Assembly: GCA_965202625.1 (NCBI GenBank)
Contig: CBDBBI010000010.1
Coordinates: forward strand, 2,144,001-2,208,000
DNA length: 64,000 nt
Reading direction: 5' to 3'
Source of the DNA: a bacterium
GTDB taxonomy: Bacteria > UBA8248
The notes beneath the pieces are model-generated. The model ran no database searches and was not told the DNA's origin. It saw only the letters and a program-made list of their open reading frames with translations. Positions within the stretch are counted from its first letter, which is position 1; each line of letters begins with the position of its first letter. Shown here piece after piece: positions 34,186-64,000 of this stretch. The position numbers and the translations under genes are program-made.

Positions 34186-34863
34186 ATGTCCAACATCACC
34201 ATGCTCGACGTTGAGGAGCTGAAGAAGACGAAGCTGGCCCCTTTCGTCAACAAGGCGCTCAAGCACCGCGCGCCTGACCCCGCCTTTCACGCCATGCAGG
34301 GTCACAACGAGGATTTGGCGAAGTCGATGTATCTGGCTTGGGGGACGCTGTTCAACACCGGTGCTATCGATCACAAGCTCAAGGAGATCATCCGCGTTCA
34401 GCTCTCCCGCCGCGCCTTTTGCAACTACTGAGGCAACGTCCGATCTGCTTCGGCGAAGCAGGCGGGCCTGACCGAGGAGATGATAGACGATGGCATCGAC
34501 AACTGGCGCGAGAGCGGGAATTTCACCGATGCCGAGAAACTGGCGCTCGAATACAGCGAACTCATGGACTCAGAGCCCGAGAAAATTGACGCGGCGTTCT
34601 ATGCGCGCCTGAATGCTCACTATTCAGAGGCGGAAATCGTGGAGCTCGGCTCCTTCATCGGCTTCAACGTTGGCTATCACACCTTTTTCAGAACGCTTGA
34701 TTTCTACCCCATGTTCTCCCCTGCCGGCCGGCTGGTGAGCCAGGAGGAATCGCGTCGCATCTATGGCGAGTGTCCCGTCTCGCACCTGGGCGGCCCGCTC
34801 GCGCGCGCCACGGGGGAGGAGGGTCAGGCGAATGGAAACGAAGGAGAGTCGCCATGCCGATAA
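34186..34863 (+). CDS. AhpD/carboxymuconolactone decarboxylase-like selenoprotein (Sec at TGA 34429-34431)
   Basis: Track ORFs 34186-34431 and 34480-34863 are in frame; LKEIIRVQLSRRAF-CNYU-GNVRS; FTDAEKLALEY; hairpin CTGCTTC-GGC-GAAGCAG at 34445-34461. Confidence 0.88.
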
Positions 34864-35459
34864 TCGAGCCGCTTGAGCCGGAGGCGATTGAGGAGAAGGG
34901 CTGGGAACGCGTCATGGAGCGCACAGCTGAGACGCAGGCGCCAGACGCTCTGTTCTCGTGCATCATGGCGCGCGCGCCTGGCTATGTCGGCGCCCTCCAC
35001 GACGCCATGCACCGATCCCACGCCATGGGCGGAGTGGACCATCGCCTCAAGGAGATGATTCGCATTCAGCTTGCCCGCACAGCACAGGATACCTACTTCG
35101 CTAATCTGCGCTCGGAGAAGGCGAAGAAAGAGGGTCTGACGGAAGCGCGCATCGAGGCCGCCTGCGGAGACTTCGAGAACGACCCGCAGTTCTCCGATGC
35201 GGAGAAATGGGCGCTTCTATACGCTTATTGGATGTATCGCGACGCCAAAAGGCTGAACAAGGAATTCTACGATGAGGGAAAAAAGCATTATTCCGAAGCC
35301 CAGATCATGGAGATCGGCTCGATGGCGGCTCTGCACTATGGTCTTCAGGTGTTCATGCGCACGCTGCGTGCCTACCCCCAGCACGATCCAGAGGGAAACC
35401 CCGTGACGCAGGCGCAGTCCGAGAAGATTTACGGAAGAGAGGTATCCCCGCCCGCGTAG
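34854..35459 (+). CDS. AhpD/CMD-like paralog lacking the redox motif
   Basis: DHRLKEMIRIQLAR...DTYFANLRS aligns with the upstream gene; AAGGAG RBS; overlaps the upstream stop. Confidence 0.8.
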   Translation: MPIIEPLEPEAIEEKGWERVMERTAETQAPDALFSCIMARAPGYVGALHDAMHRSHAMGGVDHRLKEMIRIQLARTAQDTYFANLRSEKAKKEGLTEARIEAACGDFENDPQFSDAEKWALLYAYWMYRDAKRLNKEFYDEGKKHYSEAQIMEIGSMAALHYGLQVFMRTLRAYPQHDPEGNPVTQAQSEKIYGREVSPPA

Positions 35460-43083: not shown

Positions 43084-43160
43084 GGGCCTATAGCTCAGTT
43101 GGTCAGAGCGCGCGCCTGATAAGCGCGAGGTCCCTGGTTCAAATCCAGGTAGGCCCACCA
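43084..43160 (+). tRNA. tRNA-Ile(GAT)
   Basis: Cloverleaf, anticodon loop CTGATAA, GGTTCAAATCC, CCA end. Confidence 0.97.
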
Positions 43161-43274
43161 TCTTGCGGGCGTGAAACGCATCGCAAGGGGAAATGGCGGA
43201 GGGACGGATGGACCGTTAAACCGAACCGAGAAAGGCTTGCCTTGGGGGCCGCTCCCTGAACTTAGTTTTACTAT

Positions 43275-43350
43275 GGGGATGTAGCTCAGTTGGGAGAGCA
43301 CCTGGTTTGCAACCAGGAGGTCGGCGGTTCGATTCCGCTCATCTCCACCA
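43275..43350 (+). tRNA. tRNA-Ala(TGC)
   Basis: Cloverleaf, anticodon loop TTTGCAA, GGTTCGATTCC, CCA end. Confidence 0.97.
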
Positions 43351-56910: not shown

Positions 56911-57939
56911 ATGCCGATGGATTGGGATGAGTTCAAATCGAAAAGACAAGGCGGTGGCGGTGGCATGCCCCCACAAATCAAGCTGCCCCAGTTCCGTTTG
57001 CCCAGTTTCAAGCTGCCATCGGCGGCGATATTCGTGGTGGTCGTGCTGATTTGGCTGGCGTCTGGAATTTTCAGCGTTGGGCCGGACGAGCAAGGGATCG
57101 TTCTTCGATTCGGACAGATTGACCGAGTCGTGTCCTCGGGTTTGAACTATCATATCCCCTTCCCGATAGAGACTGCCTACACGCCGAAAGTAACAGAGGT
57201 AAAGCGCGTGGAAATTGGTTTCCGCACCATCGATCCGGGGCCTCCTGCGCGGTATTCGGACAAGCCCCATGAATCGAGAATGTTGACGGGTGATGAAAAC
57301 ATGGTGGACGTCGATATGATCGTTCAATACCGCATCGTAGAGGCGGACAAATACCTCTTCAAGGTTCGGAACCCGAAAGAGACTGTGATCCACGCTGCAG
57401 AGGCCGCCATCCGGCAAGTGGTAGGCAGCAAGCCCATTGATGAGGCGCTCACTACGGGAAAAGGCGCGATTCAACAAGAGACGTCGGTAGAGTTGCAAAA
57501 GATATTGGATCGCTATGAAACTGGTTTGCGCGTGGTGGCAGTACAGCTTCAAGACGTGACGCCGCCGCGAGAGGTTATCCATGCTTTTAAGGATGTGGCC
57601 AGTGCTCGTGAAGACAGGAACCGCCTCGTGAATGAGGCGCAGGGCTATCAAAACCAGGTGATACCGGAGACCCGGGGCAAGGTGGCCGCTGTTCTCAGAA
57701 AAGCGGAAGCCTACCGGGAGACAAAAATTCTTCATGCGCGCGGAGATGCGAATCGTTTCCTGGCGACGCTCAAAGAATACAGAAAGGCGCCAGCGATTAC
57801 GCGCGAACGTTTGTATCTCGAGATGATGGAGGAAGTGATGCCGACGGTGGACAAGGTGATCATGGATCAAGGCAAATCGGGTGTATTGCCGATCCTCCCG
57901 CTCCGGGGCAATGGAATCGAAGGGATAACGAAACGATGA
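56911..57939 (+). CDS. hflK: FtsH modulator HflK
   Basis: MPMDW N-terminus, TM segment, MLTGDEN, AFKDVASAR, TRERLYLE. Confidence 0.95.
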   Translation: MPMDWDEFKSKRQGGGGGMPPQIKLPQFRLPSFKLPSAAIFVVVVLIWLASGIFSVGPDEQGIVLRFGQIDRVVSSGLNYHIPFPIETAYTPKVTEVKRVEIGFRTIDPGPPARYSDKPHESRMLTGDENMVDVDMIVQYRIVEADKYLFKVRNPKETVIHAAEAAIRQVVGSKPIDEALTTGKGAIQQETSVELQKILDRYETGLRVVAVQLQDVTPPREVIHAFKDVASAREDRNRLVNEAQGYQNQVIPETRGKVAAVLRKAEAYRETKILHARGDANRFLATLKEYRKAPAITRERLYLEMMEEVMPTVDKVIMDQGKSGVLPILPLRGNGIEGITKR

Positions 57940-58891: not shown

Positions 58892-59091
58892 TGAATGGCG
58901 AAGGAAAGACGGAAAGCGGATTTTCCGGTTTTTCTGTATGAAGGGAAGGCATGGGCGATGCCCAAAAGAGTTGCCTGCTATCTTTCCTTTTATATATGAA
59001 GACGCGTCAATCAATCATCCGTGAGTGGGGAGCAAAAATGTGGAGGTGCACTTGCCTGAAATATTGCTTAATATGATTGCTAGATGACTTC

Positions 59092-59261
59092 ATACAAAAT
59101 GTAGTGTGTTTTTTCATGATTCCGCAATATGTAGCGATCTGGATAGAGTTTTACCCACAGTTTATCCAGAGGGGAATAGACCAATTAGATTATAAAAAGC
59201 AATGGGTTATAGGGAATCTATATGTAGTATAACTCTGAGCTGTGGATACAATATCTTGCAC
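59092..59261. promoter_or_regulatory. cluster of 4 NrdR-box-like and 3 DnaA-box-like motifs
   Basis: NrdR-like 16-mers at 59092, 59122, 59215, 59246; DnaA-like 9-mers at 59151, 59162, 59241. Confidence 0.55.
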
Positions 59262-59422
59262 GTAAGAGAAAACTCCGGCTTTCTAACCGCTCTCTCGGGA
59301 ACGAATCATTTTGTCGGTTTCACCGTCAAGCGCGTTGCGGCGAAGGCGCGACGCCCAAATATGGGCAAAAGAGCAAAGCAAGCGACGTTTTTTGCTGTCT
59401 TGACCACCCTGATGGAAATGTC

Positions 59423-59788
59423 TCATTGCTTGTCCCTTAAATAACCATCGCTTCCATCAAGCCAGTCTTTCCGAATGGGGCTGAATATATCGTAATCTAT
59501 CACCGTTTCATCACCCACGACTTCTGCGGAGTGTGGAACGTTTGGGGGGATCAAAAGCGTTTCTCCAGGCCCAATCTCCACAGGTTCGTCGTCAATGACG
59601 AATCTAAGTTTTCCCTTGATGACGTGAGATATCTGCTCGTTCTCGTGGCTGTGCGTAGGAACCCGGCATCCCGGTTTTAGCTTGATCCAACAGAGCATCT
59701 CTTTTTCACCCACCACCATTTTTCTCGAAAAAGAAGTGGTCACGGTTTCTTCTACTATCTCATTCCAATGATATTTTTTGGCGCGCAT
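59423..59788 (-). CDS. cupin domain protein
   Basis: PTHSHENEQ, IPPNVPH, DIFSPIRKD. Confidence 0.9.
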   Translation of the reverse strand: MRAKKYHWNEIVEETVTTSFSRKMVVGEKEMLCWIKLKPGCRVPTHSHENEQISHVIKGKLRFVIDDEPVEIGPGETLLIPPNVPHSAEVVGDETVIDYDIFSPIRKDWLDGSDGYLRDKQ

Positions 59789-59993
59789 GGCGTATCTCCT
59801 CAGATTCGGTCGCTTCAATTGCGAATGCAAGAAGCCCTTTTTTCACTTAAGCGCGGTCTTTGTGATGAGAACGTGCTCAGGAAATCTTGCTCTATGAACT
59901 TATGCAGTCCATATGACATTCATGCTTTTCACTGGAAAACGTCCCATTGTGCGTTGTTTCACTTTTGGGTGGCGGGGAAACGCGCCGACGTAG

Positions 59994-60272
59994 TTACTGC
60001 TTATACTCAGGAAGCGTTCTGTTGAATCCTTTCCGCATGACCCGACCCTTTTTGAGCACGTAATAATCCTGGCCATATCGGATGACGCTGGTGAGAGGCG
60101 GAATTTGACATTCTTTAGAGATGATCTGGTTTTTTTGGGATTCGTCGCGGGGAAGGTAGCGCTCCGCGTCTTGGTCGGATAAATAAACCTTCCGATTGCA
60201 GTTGCTAGACGCTTTTTTGTATTCACCTTCCAGTCTGATGTTCTTGCATTCGCAAGCAATCGCATCGCTCAT
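59994..60272 (-). CDS. hypothetical protein
   Basis: AGGAG RBS, 92 aa, four Cys. Confidence 0.45.
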   Translation of the reverse strand: MSDAIACECKNIRLEGEYKKASSNCNRKVYLSDQDAERYLPRDESQKNQIISKECQIPPLTSVIRYGQDYYVLKKGRVMRKGFNRTLPEYKQ

Positions 60273-60481
60273 TGTCGATCTCCTGGAAAAGTAGGCCTAT
60301 GCTAAGAAAACGTACCTCTTGGTGTCAAGACCACTTCAGGTGAGAAACTTCAAAATTCTCAGAGAGGGGAGAGATTCCAAATTAGTTTGAAATATCTCCG
60401 TCCCCCAAGTATAATTGATTGGGCTTTTTCCTCATTATTTTGGATTTGTTTGCACTTCACTCATTTTCGGAGGTTACACAG

Positions 60482-60982
60482 ATGCCACGCATGGCGGAAA
60501 AGATAATTGATTCGGGCAATCCCTTCCCCAGCATTGAAGTAGATCGAGTGGGGGGAGGTAAAATCTCTCTTCCCGGCGATCTGTCGGGTGCATGGGGAGT
60601 AGTTCTTTTATACCGGGGGCACTGGTGACCGTATTGCAAGCAGCAACTTACTGCCTTCGAACGAGCTGTGAAGCTCCAGGAAGAGGGCGTCAAGGTTGTT
60701 GCCGCCTCCGTGGACACGGAGGAGCAAGCCCAGGGGACGATAGATGAATGTGGACTCCACTTTCCCGTGGGCTATGGCCTCGACAACAAACAGGTATCCG
60801 AGCTCCTTGGTTGTTTTTATGAAGAGAAACGCCAGATTCTTCACAGCACGGGCTACGTTCTAAAGCCGGATGGAACGGTTGCTGTGGGTGTTTACAGTAC
60901 CGGGCCCATCGGCCGGCTCGTGTGGCAGGATGTTCTGAATATGGTTCAGTTTCATAAGAAAATGATGGCGGCGCAAAACTAG
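60482..60982 (+). CDS. peroxiredoxin-like (AhpC/TSA) selenoprotein, UxxC (Sec at TGA 60626-60628)
   Basis: GGAGG RBS; LYRGHW-U-PYC; downstream ORF 60668-60982 is in frame; VVAASVD, YSTGPIGRL. Confidence 0.88.
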
Positions 60983-60994
60983 GAGCGGATTTTT

Positions 60995-61038
60995 GAGAGC
61001 ACCCTCTCAGCCGTTGATGCTGAGGGGGTGTTTTTCTC
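60995..61038 (+). terminator. intrinsic terminator-like hairpin between the two Prx-like genes
   Basis: CACCCTCTCAGC-loop-GCTGAGGGGGTG-TTTTT. Confidence 0.7.
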
Positions 61039-61091
61039 GTGCGCAAGCTCGGTTCGCCGGCTTTCATCTTTCAATAAAAGTGGAGTTGATT

Positions 61092-61619
61092 ATGCCGAAA
61101 GTGAACGATTTGTTTCTAGATACCGGGGATGATTTCCCGAGTATGTATATCTCGAAAGTGGGTGGTGGAAAAATTACTCTGCCTGATGATTTGAGGGGTG
61201 CGTGGGGTGTTGTGTTGTTCTACCGAAGTCATTGGTGACCTTATTGACTCGCACAGATGGCGGGGTTCTCCCGGGCGGGAGAAAAGCTTGAAGCGGAAGG
61301 CATCAAAGTCGTCGCGGCGTCTACTGACCCTGAAAATGAAGCCATGCAATCCATCGAAGCGAGCAAGGTGAACTTTCCAGTCGGTCACAGCCTGAATCCC
61401 GTGCGCATCTCTGAGGTGACAGGCGCTTATTACGCGCCCGAAGCGGGCGAGAAGCCAAGACCATACCTTCATTCTACGAATTTTTTGCTCTCGCCGGACG
61501 GGAAGGTGAACGTCGCGCTATACAGCTCAGGCCCTCTCGGGCGGCTCGTCTGGCAGGACGTGATCCAGGCTGTGCAGTTTCGAAAAAGACGGATGGCTCA
61601 GGCTCGGGATAGGGATTAG
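61092..61619 (+). CDS. peroxiredoxin-like selenoprotein with two Sec, UxxU (TGA 61236-61238 and 61245-61247)
   Basis: TAC CGA AGT CAT TGG TGA CCT TAT TGA CTC GCA CAG ATG = YRSHW-U-PY-U-LAQM; paralog of the upstream gene along its whole length. Confidence 0.82.
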
Positions 61620-61620
61620 A

Positions 61621-61652
61621 AAAAGCCGGCGAGGCTGCCCTCACCGGCTTTT
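61621..61652. terminator. bidirectional terminator between convergent genes
   Basis: AAAAGCCGG...CCGGCTTTT. Confidence 0.75.
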
Positions 61653-61662
61653 GGAGCTGTCT

Positions 61663-62052
61663 TTACGTGTTTTTGAGACGTTCTTTTATTTCATCCGCAT
61701 CGGACGCCTTGTTGTAGTCTTGGTCCAACGTGCCGTCGCCCGCAGGACTTTTGACCGCGAAGAATTTTGCTGGTCCTTCGGTGATGTGAATGCCATGTCG
61801 CGTGTTCCGGGGGATGTGCGCCAAGTCACCAGGCCCAATTTCTCGAATCTCCTCGCCACAGATCATGTTCATCTTTCCCTCGAGCATCAAAATGTATTGC
61901 TCTTCGTTGGGATGGAAGTGCGGCGGCGGGCCATCCCCTTGTGAATAGATGACCCACCCCACCTTCATCAACTCGCCAGTCGTTGCGTGATTGATGGCTG
62001 GACCTACTTTTGACCTGCCTTTGGGGAGTTCTTCCATTCTATAAAAAGGCAT
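61663..62052 (-). CDS. cupin domain protein
   Basis: PPPHFHPNEEQ, HIPRNTRHG. Confidence 0.88.
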   Translation of the reverse strand: MPFYRMEELPKGRSKVGPAINHATTGELMKVGWVIYSQGDGPPPHFHPNEEQYILMLEGKMNMICGEEIREIGPGDLAHIPRNTRHGIHITEGPAKFFAVKSPAGDGTLDQDYNKASDADEIKERLKNT

Positions 62053-62075
62053 CCCAAATCTCCTTTTGAGATATA

Positions 62076-62465
62076 TCAGATTGATTTCAGTTTTTTTCGC
62101 GCCTCCTCGACGTCTTTGTCCATGTTGTAGTCTTGGTAGAGGTCGCCGTCCCCCGCGGGGCTTTTTACGGTAAAGAACGAGAAAGGTCCCTCCATGATGA
62201 AAAGGCCATGTCGCTCACCGCGGCGAATATGGACCAAATCTCCGGGACCGACAACGCGGGTTTCCTCGCCCAGGAGCATATTCGCCTTGCCCGCCATCAC
62301 TAAAAGGAACTGCTCCTCGTTCGGATGAAAATGAGGGGGCGGACCGCCGCCTTCAGGATAGGTTATCATTCCGGCCTTCATGAGCTCCCCGCCCACGCTT
62401 TGCATACGTGCGTTCCCCATATCAACGAATTGCGTTTCCATTTCAGATATCCTGTAAAATGGCAA
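62076..62465 (-). CDS. cupin domain protein (tandem paralog)
   Basis: PPPHFHPNEEQ, VKSPAGDG shared with its neighbour; TTG start. Confidence 0.88.
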   Translation of the reverse strand: MPFYRISEMETQFVDMGNARMQSVGGELMKAGMITYPEGGGPPPHFHPNEEQFLLVMAGKANMLLGEETRVVGPGDLVHIRRGERHGLFIMEGPFSFFTVKSPAGDGDLYQDYNMDKDVEEARKKLKSI

Positions 62466-62483
62466 TTTTACGCCCCCTTGTTT

Positions 62484-63164
62484 TCAATTAAGCCGAGCGA
62501 CCACCCGAGTGGGCGCTCCCTCAATTTTATAGAGCTTCATGGGAAATGCGAACATTTCAAATTCGGTTTCATCAAACGTGTCCAAATTGACGATGTGTTC
62601 AATGAGTGGAATGCCTCGTCCCAATACCGCCCGGTGGCCGGGGGAATCTTCGTGGTGGACGATGGAGTCTGGTCGCAAGCCCGGGTCGATCGCATGGTCC
62701 ATGCACAGGGCCTTCATTCCGCAATCACATAAAAAATGACACGCTTCTGTGTCGAGATGAGGATTGGGGCCAAAGTAATCAGGGGTGAAGATTTTCTCTT
62801 TCGACCAACCAGTCCATGTAACGGCGATGGCGCCATCCAGTCGCTTGGGGTCGAACCCGGAGGAAGAGGCAATCATCTTTCGGTTGATGGGGCGCGCCTC
62901 TCGGGCGATTCCCCTCAAGTCGATTTTCACGGCGCGGCCACAAAATGTTTCAAGTGGCATTTCATCGATCGTTCTTCCATCTGTGTAGAAATGGTTGGGC
63001 GCATCGATATGTGTTCCTTGGTGTATCGCCATTTTTACCGCGCTGTTTTGACGGCCATGAGATGCATGTTCATGAAACTGCCAGTATTCCACCGGGGGAA
63101 ACGTCGGAACTTCACAAAGGTCCGGATGCCCCAGAGGCACAGTGAGATCAATGAGTCGGCTCAT
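62484..63164 (-). CDS. cyclase family metallohydrolase (kynurenine formamidase-like)
   Basis: HQGTHIDAPNH, IEHIVNL, EGAPTRVVA. Confidence 0.9.
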   Translation of the reverse strand: MSRLIDLTVPLGHPDLCEVPTFPPVEYWQFHEHASHGRQNSAVKMAIHQGTHIDAPNHFYTDGRTIDEMPLETFCGRAVKIDLRGIAREARPINRKMIASSSGFDPKRLDGAIAVTWTGWSKEKIFTPDYFGPNPHLDTEACHFLCDCGMKALCMDHAIDPGLRPDSIVHHEDSPGHRAVLGRGIPLIEHIVNLDTFDETEFEMFAFPMKLYKIEGAPTRVVARLN

Positions 63165-63999
63165 CGTCTTCCTCCGTTGAGTTGGCAACTACGAGATGAT
63201 GTTTTCTAAGGAAATCATGGATGAGGGCAAGCGTCGCCTCCGCCTTGTCCAGTTGAACGTAACGGCTCGTCCCTTCTATTAAAACAGATTCGCATCGGGA
63301 AATTTTTGTGGACAGCATTTGAATGTCCGGATGATATTCCCCATCGTGTTCACCTGTAAGCGCGAGAACCGGGCAGGAGACCTCGCCTAGGCGATCCAAT
63401 AAGTCGGGTGCCAGCAGTTCTGCGTATCCAGCCGAAGCATACCCGGACGGGTTATTTTGTAAGAAGAGGCGATGGTGCTGCGCGCGCTCTCGAGGGTTCA
63501 TGCCTCTGGGTTCTCTGTTCTCGTTTTTTCTGTTCTTGTAGGCTTCGCGCATTTCTCCTGCTTCGGCCAGATGGATTCGCTCGGCGATTCCCCTGCGCAC
63601 GCTCTTGCTGGCGGGCGCGGCGCCCGTCGCAATGAGAACGAGCGCGGCTGGGTGACGGGGCTGCTCGATCGCGAACAGGAGCGCCGCTCTTGCGCCTAAC
63701 CCGTGTCCGATGATGATGGGTTTCTCCAGGCTCAAAAGAGCGATGACATTCTGGATATCGCCCGCCATCTCATCCAGTGTATATTTTCCCCGAGGGCTTG
63801 AAGAGCGACCATGCCCTCTTGGCTCTAGGGCGATGACGCGGTGCAGGTGCATTAAAGTAGGGATGAGCTTGCGCCATACCCAGTTGGTGTCCCCAAGCCC
63901 TGGGACGCACAGAATCGGTGCGCCATCCCCAAAAGCCTCATAGCATAAAACGACAGGATCGTCTGTGCTGGAATGGCTGACGTTGACGTATTTGGCCGT
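63148..63999 (-). CDS. alpha/beta hydrolase fold protein (5' end beyond the window)
   Basis: Frame open to the window edge; GDGAPILCVPG, EPRGHGRS, GHGLGA. Confidence 0.8.
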   Translation of the reverse strand, partial: TAKYVNVSHSSTDDPVVLCYEAFGDGAPILCVPGLGDTNWVWRKLIPTLMHLHRVIALEPRGHGRSSSPRGKYTLDEMAGDIQNVIALLSLEKPIIIGHGLGARAALLFAIEQPRHPAALVLIATGAAPASKSVRRGIAERIHLAEAGEMREAYKNRKNENREPRGMNPRERAQHHRLFLQNNPSGYASAGYAELLAPDLLDRLGEVSCPVLALTGEHDGEYHPDIQMLSTKISRCESVLIEGTSRYVQLDKAEATLALIHDFLRKHHLVVANSTEEDDEPTH

Positions 64000-64000
64000 T

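What the first reader, a model, noticed from the sequence alone, without database searches (positions are those of the whole stretch)
61092..61619. Peroxiredoxin-like protein with a double-selenocysteine UxxU motif
Seen: the frame reads HW-TGA-CCT-TAT-TGA-LAQM, so both Cys positions of the thioredoxin-fold CxxC motif are TGA. The frame continues to a TAG stop at 61619, giving 175 aa. The adjacent paralog has U-P-Y-C at the same site. Two tandem hairpins follow: CTCGC-ACAGATG-GCGGG (61248-61264) and the perfect TTCTCCC-GGGC-GGGAGAA (61266-61283). Known: UxxU motifs are rare and form a diselenide in the SelL family. Inference: a diselenide redox protein that needs two Sec insertions 9 nt apart, through one shared or two staggered SECIS elements. 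Standard gene callers would split it or call it a pseudogene.
Basis: partly seen in the sequence, partly recalled or inferred. Interest (0 to 1): 0.9.

Follow-up and report, generated by a model that had tools for sequence, protein, structure and literature searches.

The report
Double-selenocysteine peroxiredoxin-like redox gene
A small thioredoxin-fold redox gene in a Nitrospinota-related bacterium has two in-frame TGA codons three codons apart that are very probably both read as selenocysteine. This arrangement is rare but already catalogued, and gene callers cut the gene in half.

Summary
Window 61092-61619 (+) reads HW-TGA-CCT-TAT-TGA-LAQM and gives 175 aa (AhpC/TSA fold). A 53%-identical UPYC paralogue lies just upstream.

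The second TGA is neither an error nor a stop:
- In 30 orthologues from related genomes, site 1 is TGA in 30. Site 2 is TGA in 15, TGC in 14 and TGT in 1.
- The 120 codons after the second TGA evolve under dN/dS 0.11.
- An independent DNA assembly and an RNA-library contig carry the same TGA-TGA.
- The genome has selA, selB, selD and one tRNA-Sec. No second tRNA-Sec-like gene was found. TGA is its commonest stop codon.

An 18-nt hairpin (61266-61283, loop GGGC) is identical in 28 orthologues, including at synonymous sites. It meets the published bacterial SECIS rules for both UGAs, with 34 and 25 nt to the loop. A weaker hairpin (61248-61264) shows some compensatory changes, so staggered elements are not excluded.

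[quoted passage not shown] It is not a SelL member.

New here:
- the lineage history, with at least 4 U/C switches at site 2;
- the compact hairpin occurs in every UxxU gene;
- public protein sets hold only the 100-122 aa C-terminal fragment.

No protein-level evidence exists.

The parts
60387..60415 (+). Sigma-70-like promoter site upstream of paralogue A (TTGAAA-17-TATAAT)
   Evidence: 11 of 12 matches. This is a consensus match only. No such site was called on the + strand directly upstream of gene B.
60482..60982 (+). Paralogue A: AhpC/TSA-type selenoprotein gene with a UPYC motif (single TGA at 60626-60628), 166 aa
   Evidence: PF00578, 64.3 bits, 1 TGA. A-type genes with UxxC stand next to B in the related loci (28 A genes extracted).
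60995..61038 (+). Strong stem-loop followed by a U run between A and B; terminator-like
   Evidence: 17-pair stem, region MFE -42.5 kcal/mol, z -2.97. The scan did not call it. An RNA-library contig bridges it (60972-61161).
61092..61619 (+). Gene B: AhpC/TSA-fold protein of 175 aa with a UPYU motif
   Evidence: PF00578, 64.2 bits against a cut-off of 26. AlphaFold2 pLDDT 86, pTM 0.84; dN/dS 0.146 upstream of TGA1 and 0.110 downstream of TGA2 among the UxxU orthologues.
61236..61238 (+). TGA1 = Sec49. It aligns with the first Cys of the ResA CxxC and with the Thr of the Prx TxxC.
   Evidence: TGA in 30 of 30 orthologues. Alignments.
61245..61247 (+). TGA2 = Sec52. It aligns with the second Cys of CxxC and with the peroxidatic Cys of Prx.
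   Evidence: TGA 15, TGC 14, TGT 1 of 30. Unchanged in the DNA contig of X5 and the RNA-library contig of X7. Alignments.
61248..61264 (+). Hairpin 1 (5-6 pairs, loop ACAGAUG here and CAGAU/CAGCU in most orthologues); auxiliary structure of unknown role
   Evidence: 3 of 6 pairs show changes on both sides and 88.9% of cells are paired. A +3 slide control scores as high. It fails three bSECIS rules: -4.8 kcal/mol, no G in the first two loop positions, and 14 nt from UGA1.
61266..61283 (+). Hairpin 2: the probable SECIS (7 pairs, loop GGGC)
   Evidence: -9.9 kcal/mol, with 34 nt (UGA1) and 25 nt (UGA2) to the loop. It meets all four bSECIS rules quoted. Its stem is invariant in 28 orthologues. 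Five of the six single-codon columns of the gene lie in it (P about 1e-6).

Best explanation
Gene B encodes a cytoplasmic thioredoxin-fold (AhpC/TSA-type) redox protein whose CxxC centre is U-P-Y-U. Both UGA codons are read as selenocysteine by the cell's SelB / Sec-tRNA(Sec) system.

The recoding signal is the invariant 18-nt hairpin at 61266-61283. It lies far enough downstream (18 and 27 nt from the two codons, 25 and 34 nt to its GGGC loop) to stay folded and within range when either UGA is in the A site. One element therefore probably serves both, with SelB reloading between the two events. Hairpin 1, directly after UGA2, is an auxiliary structure of unknown role.

The two selenols sit at the N-terminus of helix 1. 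One is at the position of the thioredoxin-type nucleophile and the other at the position of the peroxiredoxin peroxidatic Cys. They most likely cycle between a diselenide and two selenols.

Shown: the gene is real, conserved and read through in frame; the Sec machinery is present; the hairpin is under nucleotide-level selection. Inferred: Sec (rather than another residue) at site 2, the single shared SECIS, the diselenide, and the substrate.
For: Sec/Cys alternation at site 2: TGA 15, TGC 14, TGT 1 of 30 orthologues, with TGA 30 of 30 at site 1. UxxU occurs in five genera of the family (g1, g2, g5, g7, g9).

Purifying selection after TGA2: median dN/dS 0.110 at dS about 1, from 79 of 105 UxxU pairs; the others were dropped as saturated or as having dS<=0.05. 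In many orthologues codon 56 is Leu (CTG/CTC/CTT), so the 120-aa remainder has no start codon there.

Machinery: tRNA-Sec 75.8 bits against a gathering score of 47, selB 361 against 242, selA 565 against 268, selD 333 against 125 with its own TGA. ARAGORN finds one tRNA-SeC(tca).

No general reassignment: TGA closes 1133 of 2227 long frames, and 3 of the 30 B orthologues end in TGA.

Hairpin 2: 7 of 7 pairs invariant in 28 orthologues. Of 60 invariant degenerate codon columns only 6 use a single codon, and 5 of these are F59, S60, R61, G63 and E64 (P 1.1e-6). It meets all four bSECIS constraints for both UGAs.

In this genome, six other candidate Sec genes have model-fitting hairpins at spacings of 16 to 37 nt.

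All 15 UxxU genes carry hairpin 2. The 3 B genes without it (L054, L055, L135) are all UxxC.

Independent sequence: the X5 contig (61187-61659, another study) and the X7 RNA-library contig (61198-61491) show no difference at 61236-61247.

Fold: helix 50-61 starts right after U49. Nearest structures are Prx and ResA, TM 0.63-0.71 apart from one ResA variant at 0.56.
Against: There is no protein-level evidence of any kind. RNA-library contigs do not prove transcription, let alone translation.

Hairpin 2 never varies, so there is no covariation for it. The fold of the window sequence alone is not better than shuffles (z -0.70).

Half of the orthologues have Cys at site 2, so the second Sec is dispensable.

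The spacings of 25 and 34 nt are longer than the 16-22 nt seen at 11 of the 13 other candidate sites in this genome by my simple no-bulge scan; one other site has 37.

Two serial recoding events should be costly. The abstract of PMC4513850 gives 30-40% per event in E. coli (listing).

The 28 sequences used for the hairpin statistics were those that have the hairpin. L054 and L055 were dropped after I saw that they differ.
Confidence: 0.75

Rival explanations
1. Two staggered recoding elements: hairpin 1 (61248-64) serves UGA1 and hairpin 2 (61266-83) serves UGA2, so that each UGA has its own SelB-binding structure.
For: Hairpin 1 shows changes on both sides in 3 of 6 pairs, 88.9% of cells paired, and a covariation score of 0.114 against 0.048 in shuffles (0 of 500 reach it). 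Its loop lies 14-15 nt from UGA1, close to the 16-22 nt usual in this genome, and hairpin 2 lies 25 nt from UGA2. Both hairpins are weak or absent in the deep-branching UxxC B genes L054, L055 and L135.
Against: Hairpin 1 fails three of the four bSECIS rules: -4.8 kcal/mol, no G in the first two loop positions, and less than 16 nt from UGA1. The +3 slide control gives a covariation score as high (0.131). In the window's own gene and 2 other alignment rows the closing pair is A-G. Paralogue A, with one Sec, also has a small hairpin before its main stem, so a two-hairpin layout is not specific to UxxU.
Confidence: 0.17
2. The second UGA is translated but not as Sec. It would be read as Cys by a tRNA-Sec-like tRNA charged with Cys (the tRNA-ReC idea discussed for UXXU hydrogenases), or by near-cognate read-through (Trp/Cys/Arg). 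The protein would then be U-x-x-C or similar.
For: PMC13582414 (passages read) reports tRNA-ReC-like genes enriched in genomes with UXXU hydrogenases. It notes that one or both UGAs may then be read as Cys. UGA2 is followed by C in 13 of the 15 UxxU genes. That context is recalled, not tested here, as a weak termination signal.
Against: The Rfam tRNA-Sec model finds one hit above threshold. The 15 weaker hits are all ordinary tRNAs in the ARAGORN list. The two odd ARAGORN calls have poor stems and anticodons that are neither UCA nor GCA. If Cys were wanted, TGC is one mutation away and has been fixed repeatedly, yet TGA persists in five genera.
Confidence: 0.07
3. The gene is broken. Translation stops at the second (or first) TGA and gives a peptide of about 50 aa. 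The C-terminal part is either a decaying remnant or is made separately from ATG 61257.
For: Public protein sets hold exactly that 120-aa ORF (P0003). In a related genome (G008, and locus L083) the B gene does look broken: matches come in pieces, and 72 residues follow the motif.
Against: dN/dS is 0.11 over the downstream 120 codons with synonymous sites saturated, the same as in the UxxC orthologues (0.142). The internal Met is Leu in many orthologues. The frame is kept in 15 genomes of five genera.
Confidence: 0.02
4. Sequencing or assembly error at 61247 (true codon TGC).
For: None found.
Against: The same codon stands in a contig of another study (X5, which differs at 3 other places) and in an RNA-library contig (X7). 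It also stands in 14 other genomes.
Confidence: 0.01

Closest known systems
Prx-like thiol:disulfide oxidoreductase selenoprotein family (PF00578; motif UxxC or UxxU; 1-2 Sec), as listed in the reviews PMC9312934 and PMC13188914
   Same: It has the same Pfam domain, the same position of Sec in the CxxC-type motif, Cys homologues, and a SECIS directly downstream. By the reviews' own definition (domain plus motif), the gene is a member.
   Different: I saw only table rows and one sentence. They do not say in which organisms UxxU occurs or how it is decoded. I could not compare the gene with the family's reference protein. The lineage history, the invariant hairpin and the tandem UxxC paralogue are not in the passages I read.
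SelL (UxxU selenoprotein with a diselenide bond; fish, invertebrates, marine bacteria)
   Same: It has a UxxU motif in a peroxiredoxin-like thioredoxin fold. PMC2397514 (passage) says SelL has a diselenide bond and that diselenides have very low redox potentials.
   Different: The gene is not a member: NCBIfam SelL_rel_redox scores 26.9 bits against a cut-off of 120. The original SelL paper is not held, so its content is recalled, apart from its title in reference lists.
ResA/TlpA-type CxxC thiol-disulfide oxidoreductases
   Same: ResA is the best sequence match among solved structures (3c71_A, E 8.2e-10), with WCPHC aligned to WUPYU. ResA chains have TM 0.56-0.65 by Foldseek.
   Different: The gene scores far below the ResA family cut-off (29.4 against 170). 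By reading the sequence, the N-terminus has no hydrophobic anchor or signal, so the protein is probably cytoplasmic. It has Sec instead of Cys.
Peroxiredoxins (TxxC, or TxxU in Sec forms)
   Same: The overall fold is the same (Bcp4, LsfA and 1-Cys Prx, TM 0.66-0.71). U52 aligns with the peroxidatic Cys, and R123 aligns with the Arg of the 6q5v chain. That this Arg is the conserved catalytic Arg of Prx is my recollection.
   Different: The Thr of TxxC is replaced by Sec, and the Pro of PxxxTxxC by Arg45. All Prx equivalog models score far below their cut-offs.
UXXU-type Group 4 [NiFeSe] hydrogenases (PMC13582414, 2026)
   Same: They pose the same decoding problem: two UGAs three codons apart, a conserved downstream SECIS, and a proposal that one SECIS serves both (passages).
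   Different: They are an unrelated protein in which Sec is a metal ligand. tRNA-ReC-like genes are frequent in those genomes, but none was found here.

Membership tests
Prx-like thiol:disulfide oxidoreductase selenoproteins (reviews' definition) | PF00578 (AhpC-TSA) domain | tested here: met
   E 1.4e-17, 64.2 bits against a cut-off of 26; 52.3 bits on the genomic frame.
Prx-like thiol:disulfide oxidoreductase selenoproteins (reviews' definition) | Sec in a UxxC or UxxU motif at the CxxC position | tested here: met
   (U49, U52). One search aligns the motif to the CxxC of ResA.
Prx-like thiol:disulfide oxidoreductase selenoproteins (reviews' definition) | Cys-containing homologues at the Sec positions | tested here: met
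   Site 2: 15 Cys codons in 30 orthologues. Both sites are Cys in the Actinomycetota, Myxococcota and Gemmatimonadota homologues.
Prx-like thiol:disulfide oxidoreductase selenoproteins (reviews' definition) | Homology to the family's reference protein named in the reviews | not tested
   The reference accession could not be fetched with these tools.
Bacterial SECIS (consensus model quoted in PMC13188914) | Apical loop of 3-9 nt and upper stem of 4-16 bp | tested here: met
   Hairpin 2 has a 4-nt loop and a 7-bp stem.
Bacterial SECIS (consensus model quoted in PMC13188914) | G in the first two loop positions | tested here: met
   The loop is GGGC, or GGGU in 2 orthologues.
Bacterial SECIS (consensus model quoted in PMC13188914) | [quoted passage not shown] | tested here: met
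   34 nt for UGA1 and 25 nt for UGA2.
Bacterial SECIS (consensus model quoted in PMC13188914) | MFE <= -7.5 kcal/mol | tested here: met
   -9.9 kcal/mol for hairpin 2. Hairpin 1 has -4.8 and fails.
Sec-decoding organism | selA, selB, selC and selD present | tested here: met
   Searches are all above the curated cut-offs. One search finds tRNA-SeC(tca).
SelL / SelL-related redox proteins | Score above the cut-off of NCBIfam NF040769 | tested here: not met
   26.9 bits against 120.
Peroxiredoxin | PxxxTxxC active-site motif | tested here: not met
   In the alignment to 6q5v, the Thr position is U49 and the Pro position is R45. Only the peroxidatic Cys position is kept, as U52.
Peroxiredoxin | Score above the cut-off of a Prx equivalog model | tested here: not met
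   The best is 32.7 bits against 211 (NF009668).
ResA/TlpA thiol-disulfide oxidoreductase | Score above the cut-off of NF002854 | tested here: not met
   29.4 bits against 170.
Diselenide-forming UxxU redox centre | A Se-Se bond demonstrated in the protein | not testable with these tools
   This needs mass spectrometry or crystallography of the selenoprotein.

The most novel reading that the evidence does not exclude
One invariant 18-nt hairpin programmes two SelB deliveries three codons apart. Hairpin 1 acts as a spacer or pause that gives SelB time to reload. The appearance of this compact hairpin in one Nitrospinota-related lineage is what made a natural bacterial diselenide centre possible. 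That centre places Sec at both the thioredoxin-nucleophile and the peroxiredoxin-peroxidatic positions. The lineage has since switched the second site between Sec and Cys at least four times, possibly tracking selenium supply or the redox potential needed.
Probability: 0.3. Interest if true: 0.6.

Novelty: new member of a known kind. Interest (0 to 1): 0.42.

Why it matters
It gives a clean natural test case for how much distance bacterial SelB tolerates between a UGA and its SECIS. The question is whether one hairpin can serve two codons 9 nt apart. A 2026 paper on UXXU hydrogenases raises the same question without answering it.

Close relatives that differ only by TGA or TGC at the second site form a ready-made series. 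It allows a diselenide to be compared with a selenenylsulfide centre in the same scaffold.

In practice, the gene and its relatives are stored in public protein sets only as C-terminal fragments. Selenoprotein counts and redox annotations for this selenoprotein-rich, partly sponge- and ocean-associated lineage are therefore too low.

Tried and rejected
- Single-sequence folding of 61236-61300 gave the two hairpins but was no better than shuffles (z -0.70). It carries no weight alone.
- An Rfam scan of 59000-64000 at E<=10 gave only four chance-level hits and no SECIS family.
- The promoter/terminator scan found no + strand promoter directly before B. It did not call the strong stem-loop between A and B.
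- Neighbouring genes say nothing about function. They are three cupins, a putative cyclase, an alpha/beta hydrolase, two Band-7 proteins and a 92-aa ORF with no family.
- NCBIfam has no model that covers the protein. All 13 hits are far below their cut-offs.
- A genome-wide search for other UxxU genes gave 82 open frames with TGA-N6-TGA. From the printed context, and from the full read-through frames of the five least overlapped, none but gene B looks like a protein. One is simply a gene ending at a TGA. No family search was run on them.
- The two odd ARAGORN tRNA calls (89 and 92 nt) were examined as possible tRNA-Sec-like genes. I rejected them for poor stems and wrong anticodons.
- For paralogue A, my no-bulge scan found no hairpin that fits the model. 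The best had a GUGA loop 39 nt from the UGA. RNAalifold suggests a long stem at columns 28-33/58-63 plus a small hairpin. I did not pursue it.
- RNA contig depth falls from A (23.9) to B (2.8-4.9) in X7. Contig depth cannot rank genes, so I draw nothing from it.
- I tested whether the hairpin-2-bearing B genes are one clade. The constrained tree is no worse (lnL 0.78 higher, p-AU 0.534). A single origin is therefore not rejected, but it is not shown either.
- Supplementary files of the papers were closed. The supplements of PMC2398784, PMC13326102 and PMC13582414 may list these very genes or their relatives. My statement that the lineage-specific details are not in print rests only on searches and on the passages read.
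Full report
**What is there.** The + strand at 61230-61259 reads CAT TGG TGA CCT TAT TGA CTC GCA CAG ATG. Read with TGA as Sec, the frame 61092-61619 gives a 175-residue protein with U49 and U52, and it ends at a TAG. It matches Pfam AhpC-TSA (PF00578) at 64.2 bits against a cut-off of 26, and Redoxin at 41.7 bits.

A paralogue (A) lies 110 bases upstream at 60482-60982. It has HW-U-PY-C and is 53% identical.

**Is the organism able to decode Sec?** Yes.
- The genome is 3.09 Mb, 99.7% complete by the tool's figure.
- It holds a tRNA-Sec at 75.8 bits against the Rfam gathering score of 47. ARAGORN calls it tRNA-SeC(tca).
- It holds selB (361 bits against 242), selA (565 against 268) and selD (333 against 125). 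selD carries an in-frame TGA of its own.
- TGA is not a general sense codon. It closes 1133 of 2227 stop-to-stop frames of 300 codons or more. It ends the Band-7 gene at window 57937-57939. Three B orthologues end in TGA.
- The genome looks rich in selenoproteins. Besides A and B, TGA interrupts 4 further AhpC-TSA hits, 1 Rdx hit and 7 CMD (AhpD-like) hits. None of the 4 thioredoxin hits is interrupted.

**Is the second TGA read through?** I searched 61 genomes (the window's own plus 60 relatives) with the read-through protein. I extracted the 30 best orthologous loci.
- Site 1 is TGA in 30 of 30. Site 2 is TGA in 15, TGC in 14 and TGT in 1.
- UxxU occurs in five genera of the family, down to 64% protein identity. 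In the window's own genus the count is 8 UxxU against 12 UxxC.
- Among UxxU genes the 120 codons after TGA2 have a median dN/dS of 0.110 at dS about 1. This used 79 of 105 pairs; saturated pairs and those with dS<=0.05 were dropped.
- For comparison, the value is 0.146 before TGA1 (67 of 105 pairs) and 0.142 for the same region in UxxC genes.
- The internal ATG at 61257 is CTG, CTC or CTT in many orthologues, so the downstream part has no start of its own.

A scan of one genome per species (genome contigs) gave 109 relatives, of which 80 were kept (79 distinct loci).
- Among the 29 B-type genes of that scan, 15 have TGA, 13 TGC and 1 TGT at site 2. This collection overlaps the first, and I did not merge the counts.
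- All UxxU genes lie in records titled Nitrospinota, Nitrospinaceae or, in two cases, Tectomicrobia, or simply "bacterium".
- A-type UxxC genes also occur in records titled Entotheonella, Methylomirabilota, Rokuibacteriota, Terriglobia and Myxococcaceae.
- CxxC forms occur in Actinomycetota, Myxococcota and Gemmatimonadota.
- The scan patterns were WCPYC[LIV][AV]Q and GRLVWQDV. TGA-bearing genes could be found only through the second pattern, so the distribution is a lower bound.

**Independent sequence.**
- A contig from a run of another study (X5, kind guessed as DNA) covers 61187-61659. It differs at three places (61299, 61402, 61416) but not at 61236-61247.
- A contig from a metatranscriptome library of a third study (X7) covers 61198-61491 with one difference, at 61402.
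- X1 is identical over the whole stretch and may be the source.
- Contigs show presence only. An RNA library can contain DNA.

**History.**
- On a tree of the 30 B genes rooted with 5 of the 28 A genes, the UxxU label needs 6 changes, and starred branches force at least 4. The early-branching members of the main clade are all UxxU, so most changes read as Sec to Cys.
- On a wider quick tree (102 rows, midpoint root), the CxxC forms are outside. All Sec forms group together (SH-aLRT 91). The B clade (100) is nested among A-type UxxC genes of the same lineage.
- B therefore looks like a duplicate of a UxxC gene that gained a second Sec.

**The RNA signal.** Hairpin 2 (TTCTCCC-GGGC-GGGAGAA) is present in 28 of the 30 loci. 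With L135 from a further genus it is present in 28 of 31.
- Within those 28, all 7 pairs never vary. The only change is loop C to T in two genes.
- This is not protein constraint alone. Of 60 codon columns with an invariant, degenerate amino acid, only 6 use a single codon. Five of them are F59, S60, R61, G63 and E64, the codons of the hairpin. The chance of that placement is about 1e-6, or 2e-4 allowing any window.
- Caveat: I dropped L054 and L055 from this alignment after seeing that they lack the hairpin.

The review PMC13188914 (passages read) gives the bacterial SECIS model. It requires a loop of 3-9 nt, a stem of 4-16 bp, a G in the first two loop positions, 16-37 nt from the UGA to the loop, and MFE <= -7.5 kcal/mol.
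- Hairpin 2 (-9.9 kcal/mol, loop GGGC) meets all four rules for UGA1 (34 nt) and for UGA2 (25 nt).
- Hairpin 1 (-4.8 kcal/mol, loop ACAGAUG, 14 nt from UGA1) fails three.
- Hairpin 1 does show changes on both sides in 3 of 6 pairs, and 88.9% of its cells are paired. However, a +3 slide control scores as high (0.131 against 0.114).
- In this genome my simple no-bulge scan finds model-fitting hairpins at 16, 16, 17, 20, 21 and 37 nt in six other candidate Sec genes. It finds weaker G-loop hairpins at 17-22 nt in six more.
- So 25 and 34 nt are inside the range used here but longer than the mode.

The three B genes without hairpin 2 (L054, L055, L135) are all UxxC. They fold into a longer, A-like stem. 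Every UxxU gene has hairpin 2. A tree that holds the 28 hairpin-2 genes together is no worse than the free tree (p-AU 0.534). One origin of the hairpin, at or before the first UxxU, is therefore compatible with the data but not shown.

**A rival reading of UGA2.** The 2026 paper on UXXU hydrogenases (PMC13582414, passages) proposes one SECIS for both UGAs. It also notes that tRNA-Sec-like tRNAs charged with Cys are common in such genomes. Here the Rfam tRNA-Sec model gives one hit above threshold. Its 15 weaker hits coincide with ordinary tRNAs in the ARAGORN list. Two odd ARAGORN calls do not look like tRNA-Sec. ARAGORN and Rfam could miss an unusual tRNA.

**What the protein is.**
- AlphaFold2 on a 20-row alignment gives pLDDT 86 and pTM 0.84, a thioredoxin-type fold with helix 50-61 starting right after U49.
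- Foldseek finds peroxiredoxins (Bcp4, LsfA, 1-Cys Prx) and ResA, mostly at TM 0.63-0.71 with one ResA variant at 0.56.
- By sequence profile the best solved relatives are ResA (E 8e-10) and archaeal Prx (1e-9).
- In those alignments U49 and U52 match the two Cys of the ResA WCPHC. U49 matches the Thr and U52 the peroxidatic Cys of Prx (FTPVC). The Prx Pro is Arg45 here.
- The protein is a CxxC-type oxidoreductase on a Prx-like scaffold, not a canonical Prx, ResA or SelL.
- Whether it reduces peroxides or disulfides cannot be told. The neighbours are uninformative.
- The diselenide is inferred from geometry and from what is reported for SelL. PMC2397514 says SelL has a diselenide bond and that such bonds have very low redox potentials. 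The SelL paper itself is not held.

**Annotation.** In the 5.8-billion-protein set, every hit of 65% identity or more among the 120 listed is a fragment of 100-122 aa covering 51-69% of the query. This includes the window's own 120-aa ORF. Full-length hits are Cys forms of at most 55% identity, named peroxiredoxin or redoxin. The search covered lengths of 96-307 aa only.

**What is known.**
[quoted passage not shown] The 2026 review gives 1~2 Sec and files it under "predicted with high confidence" (table rows and one sentence read).
- The GOS paper reports several UxxU sequences in a different family, Prx-like 2.
- The BSepDB paper lists three Nitrospinota-labelled MAGs among the ten bacteria with the most selenoprotein genes (48-54). 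One bears the same isolate name as the record of locus L073, which carries a UxxU gene.
- A full-text search for "UxxU" returned 35 papers, of which 30 were listed. Six of those concern selenoproteins, and none of the six titles names this lineage. A search for Nitrospina plus selenocysteine returned 5 papers.
- Supplements were closed and may list these genes.

**Verdict.** This is a genuine, conserved, very probably double-Sec selenoprotein gene of an already catalogued kind. It is mis-split in public protein sets.

What is new is the comparative picture:
- a duplicate of a UxxC gene;
- a compact invariant hairpin present in every UxxU gene and in range of both UGAs;
- repeated Sec/Cys switching at the second site.

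Noticed in passing
window 34330-34551 (+), TGA at about 34429-34431: An AhpD-like (CMD, PF02627) gene has an in-frame TGA in a C-N-Y-U motif. A perfect 8-bp hairpin with loop GGC lies 20 nt downstream. It is probably another selenoprotein gene in this window. The next gene downstream (about 35022-35171) is a weak CMD hit without TGA.
   Followed up: partly
whole genome G000 (C10): At least 13 further TGA-interrupted hits to redox families: 4 AhpC-TSA, 1 Rdx/SelW-like, 7 CMD/AhpD-like and selD. The genome looks selenoprotein-rich, in line with the BSepDB ranking of Nitrospinota-labelled MAGs.
   Followed up: partly
window 60995-61038 (+): A very stable stem-loop followed by a U run lies between the two paralogues. 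It probably terminates or attenuates transcription after gene A. An RNA-library contig nevertheless bridges it.
   Followed up: partly
window 61624-61652 (+): After the TAG of gene B the sequence reads as an imperfect G+C-rich inverted repeat followed by TTTT, which is terminator-like. This is my reading of the sequence only; the scan did not call it.
   Followed up: no
window 61299 (also 61402 and 61416): The contig of run X5 has G>A at 61299. That would change Gly70, invariant in 20 aligned homologues, to Ser. The other two differences change residues that also vary among orthologues.
   Followed up: no
L033, L043, L050 (B orthologues): Three B orthologues end at a TGA stop. The same short gene therefore uses TGA twice as Sec and once as stop.
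   Followed up: no
G008:C1:1512454-1512825, and L083: The B gene of one genome of the same genus matches only in pieces (residues 1-95 and 137-170) and is probably broken. In G017 the match is split in two.
   Followed up: no
window 59423-59830, 61663-62052 and 62076-62465 (all -): Three cupin-domain genes flank the pair. The two downstream ones are tandem paralogues of 129 aa each.
   Followed up: no
window 43084-43350 (+): tRNA-Ile(gat) and tRNA-Ala(tgc) lie 115 bases apart, the usual spacer of a ribosomal RNA operon.
   Followed up: no
G000 contigs C2 and C8 against C10: Small contigs repeat parts of the large one. The same tRNA-Leu(taa) occurs on C8 and C10, and the same open frame on C2 and C10. 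The assembly therefore holds some redundant pieces.
   Followed up: no
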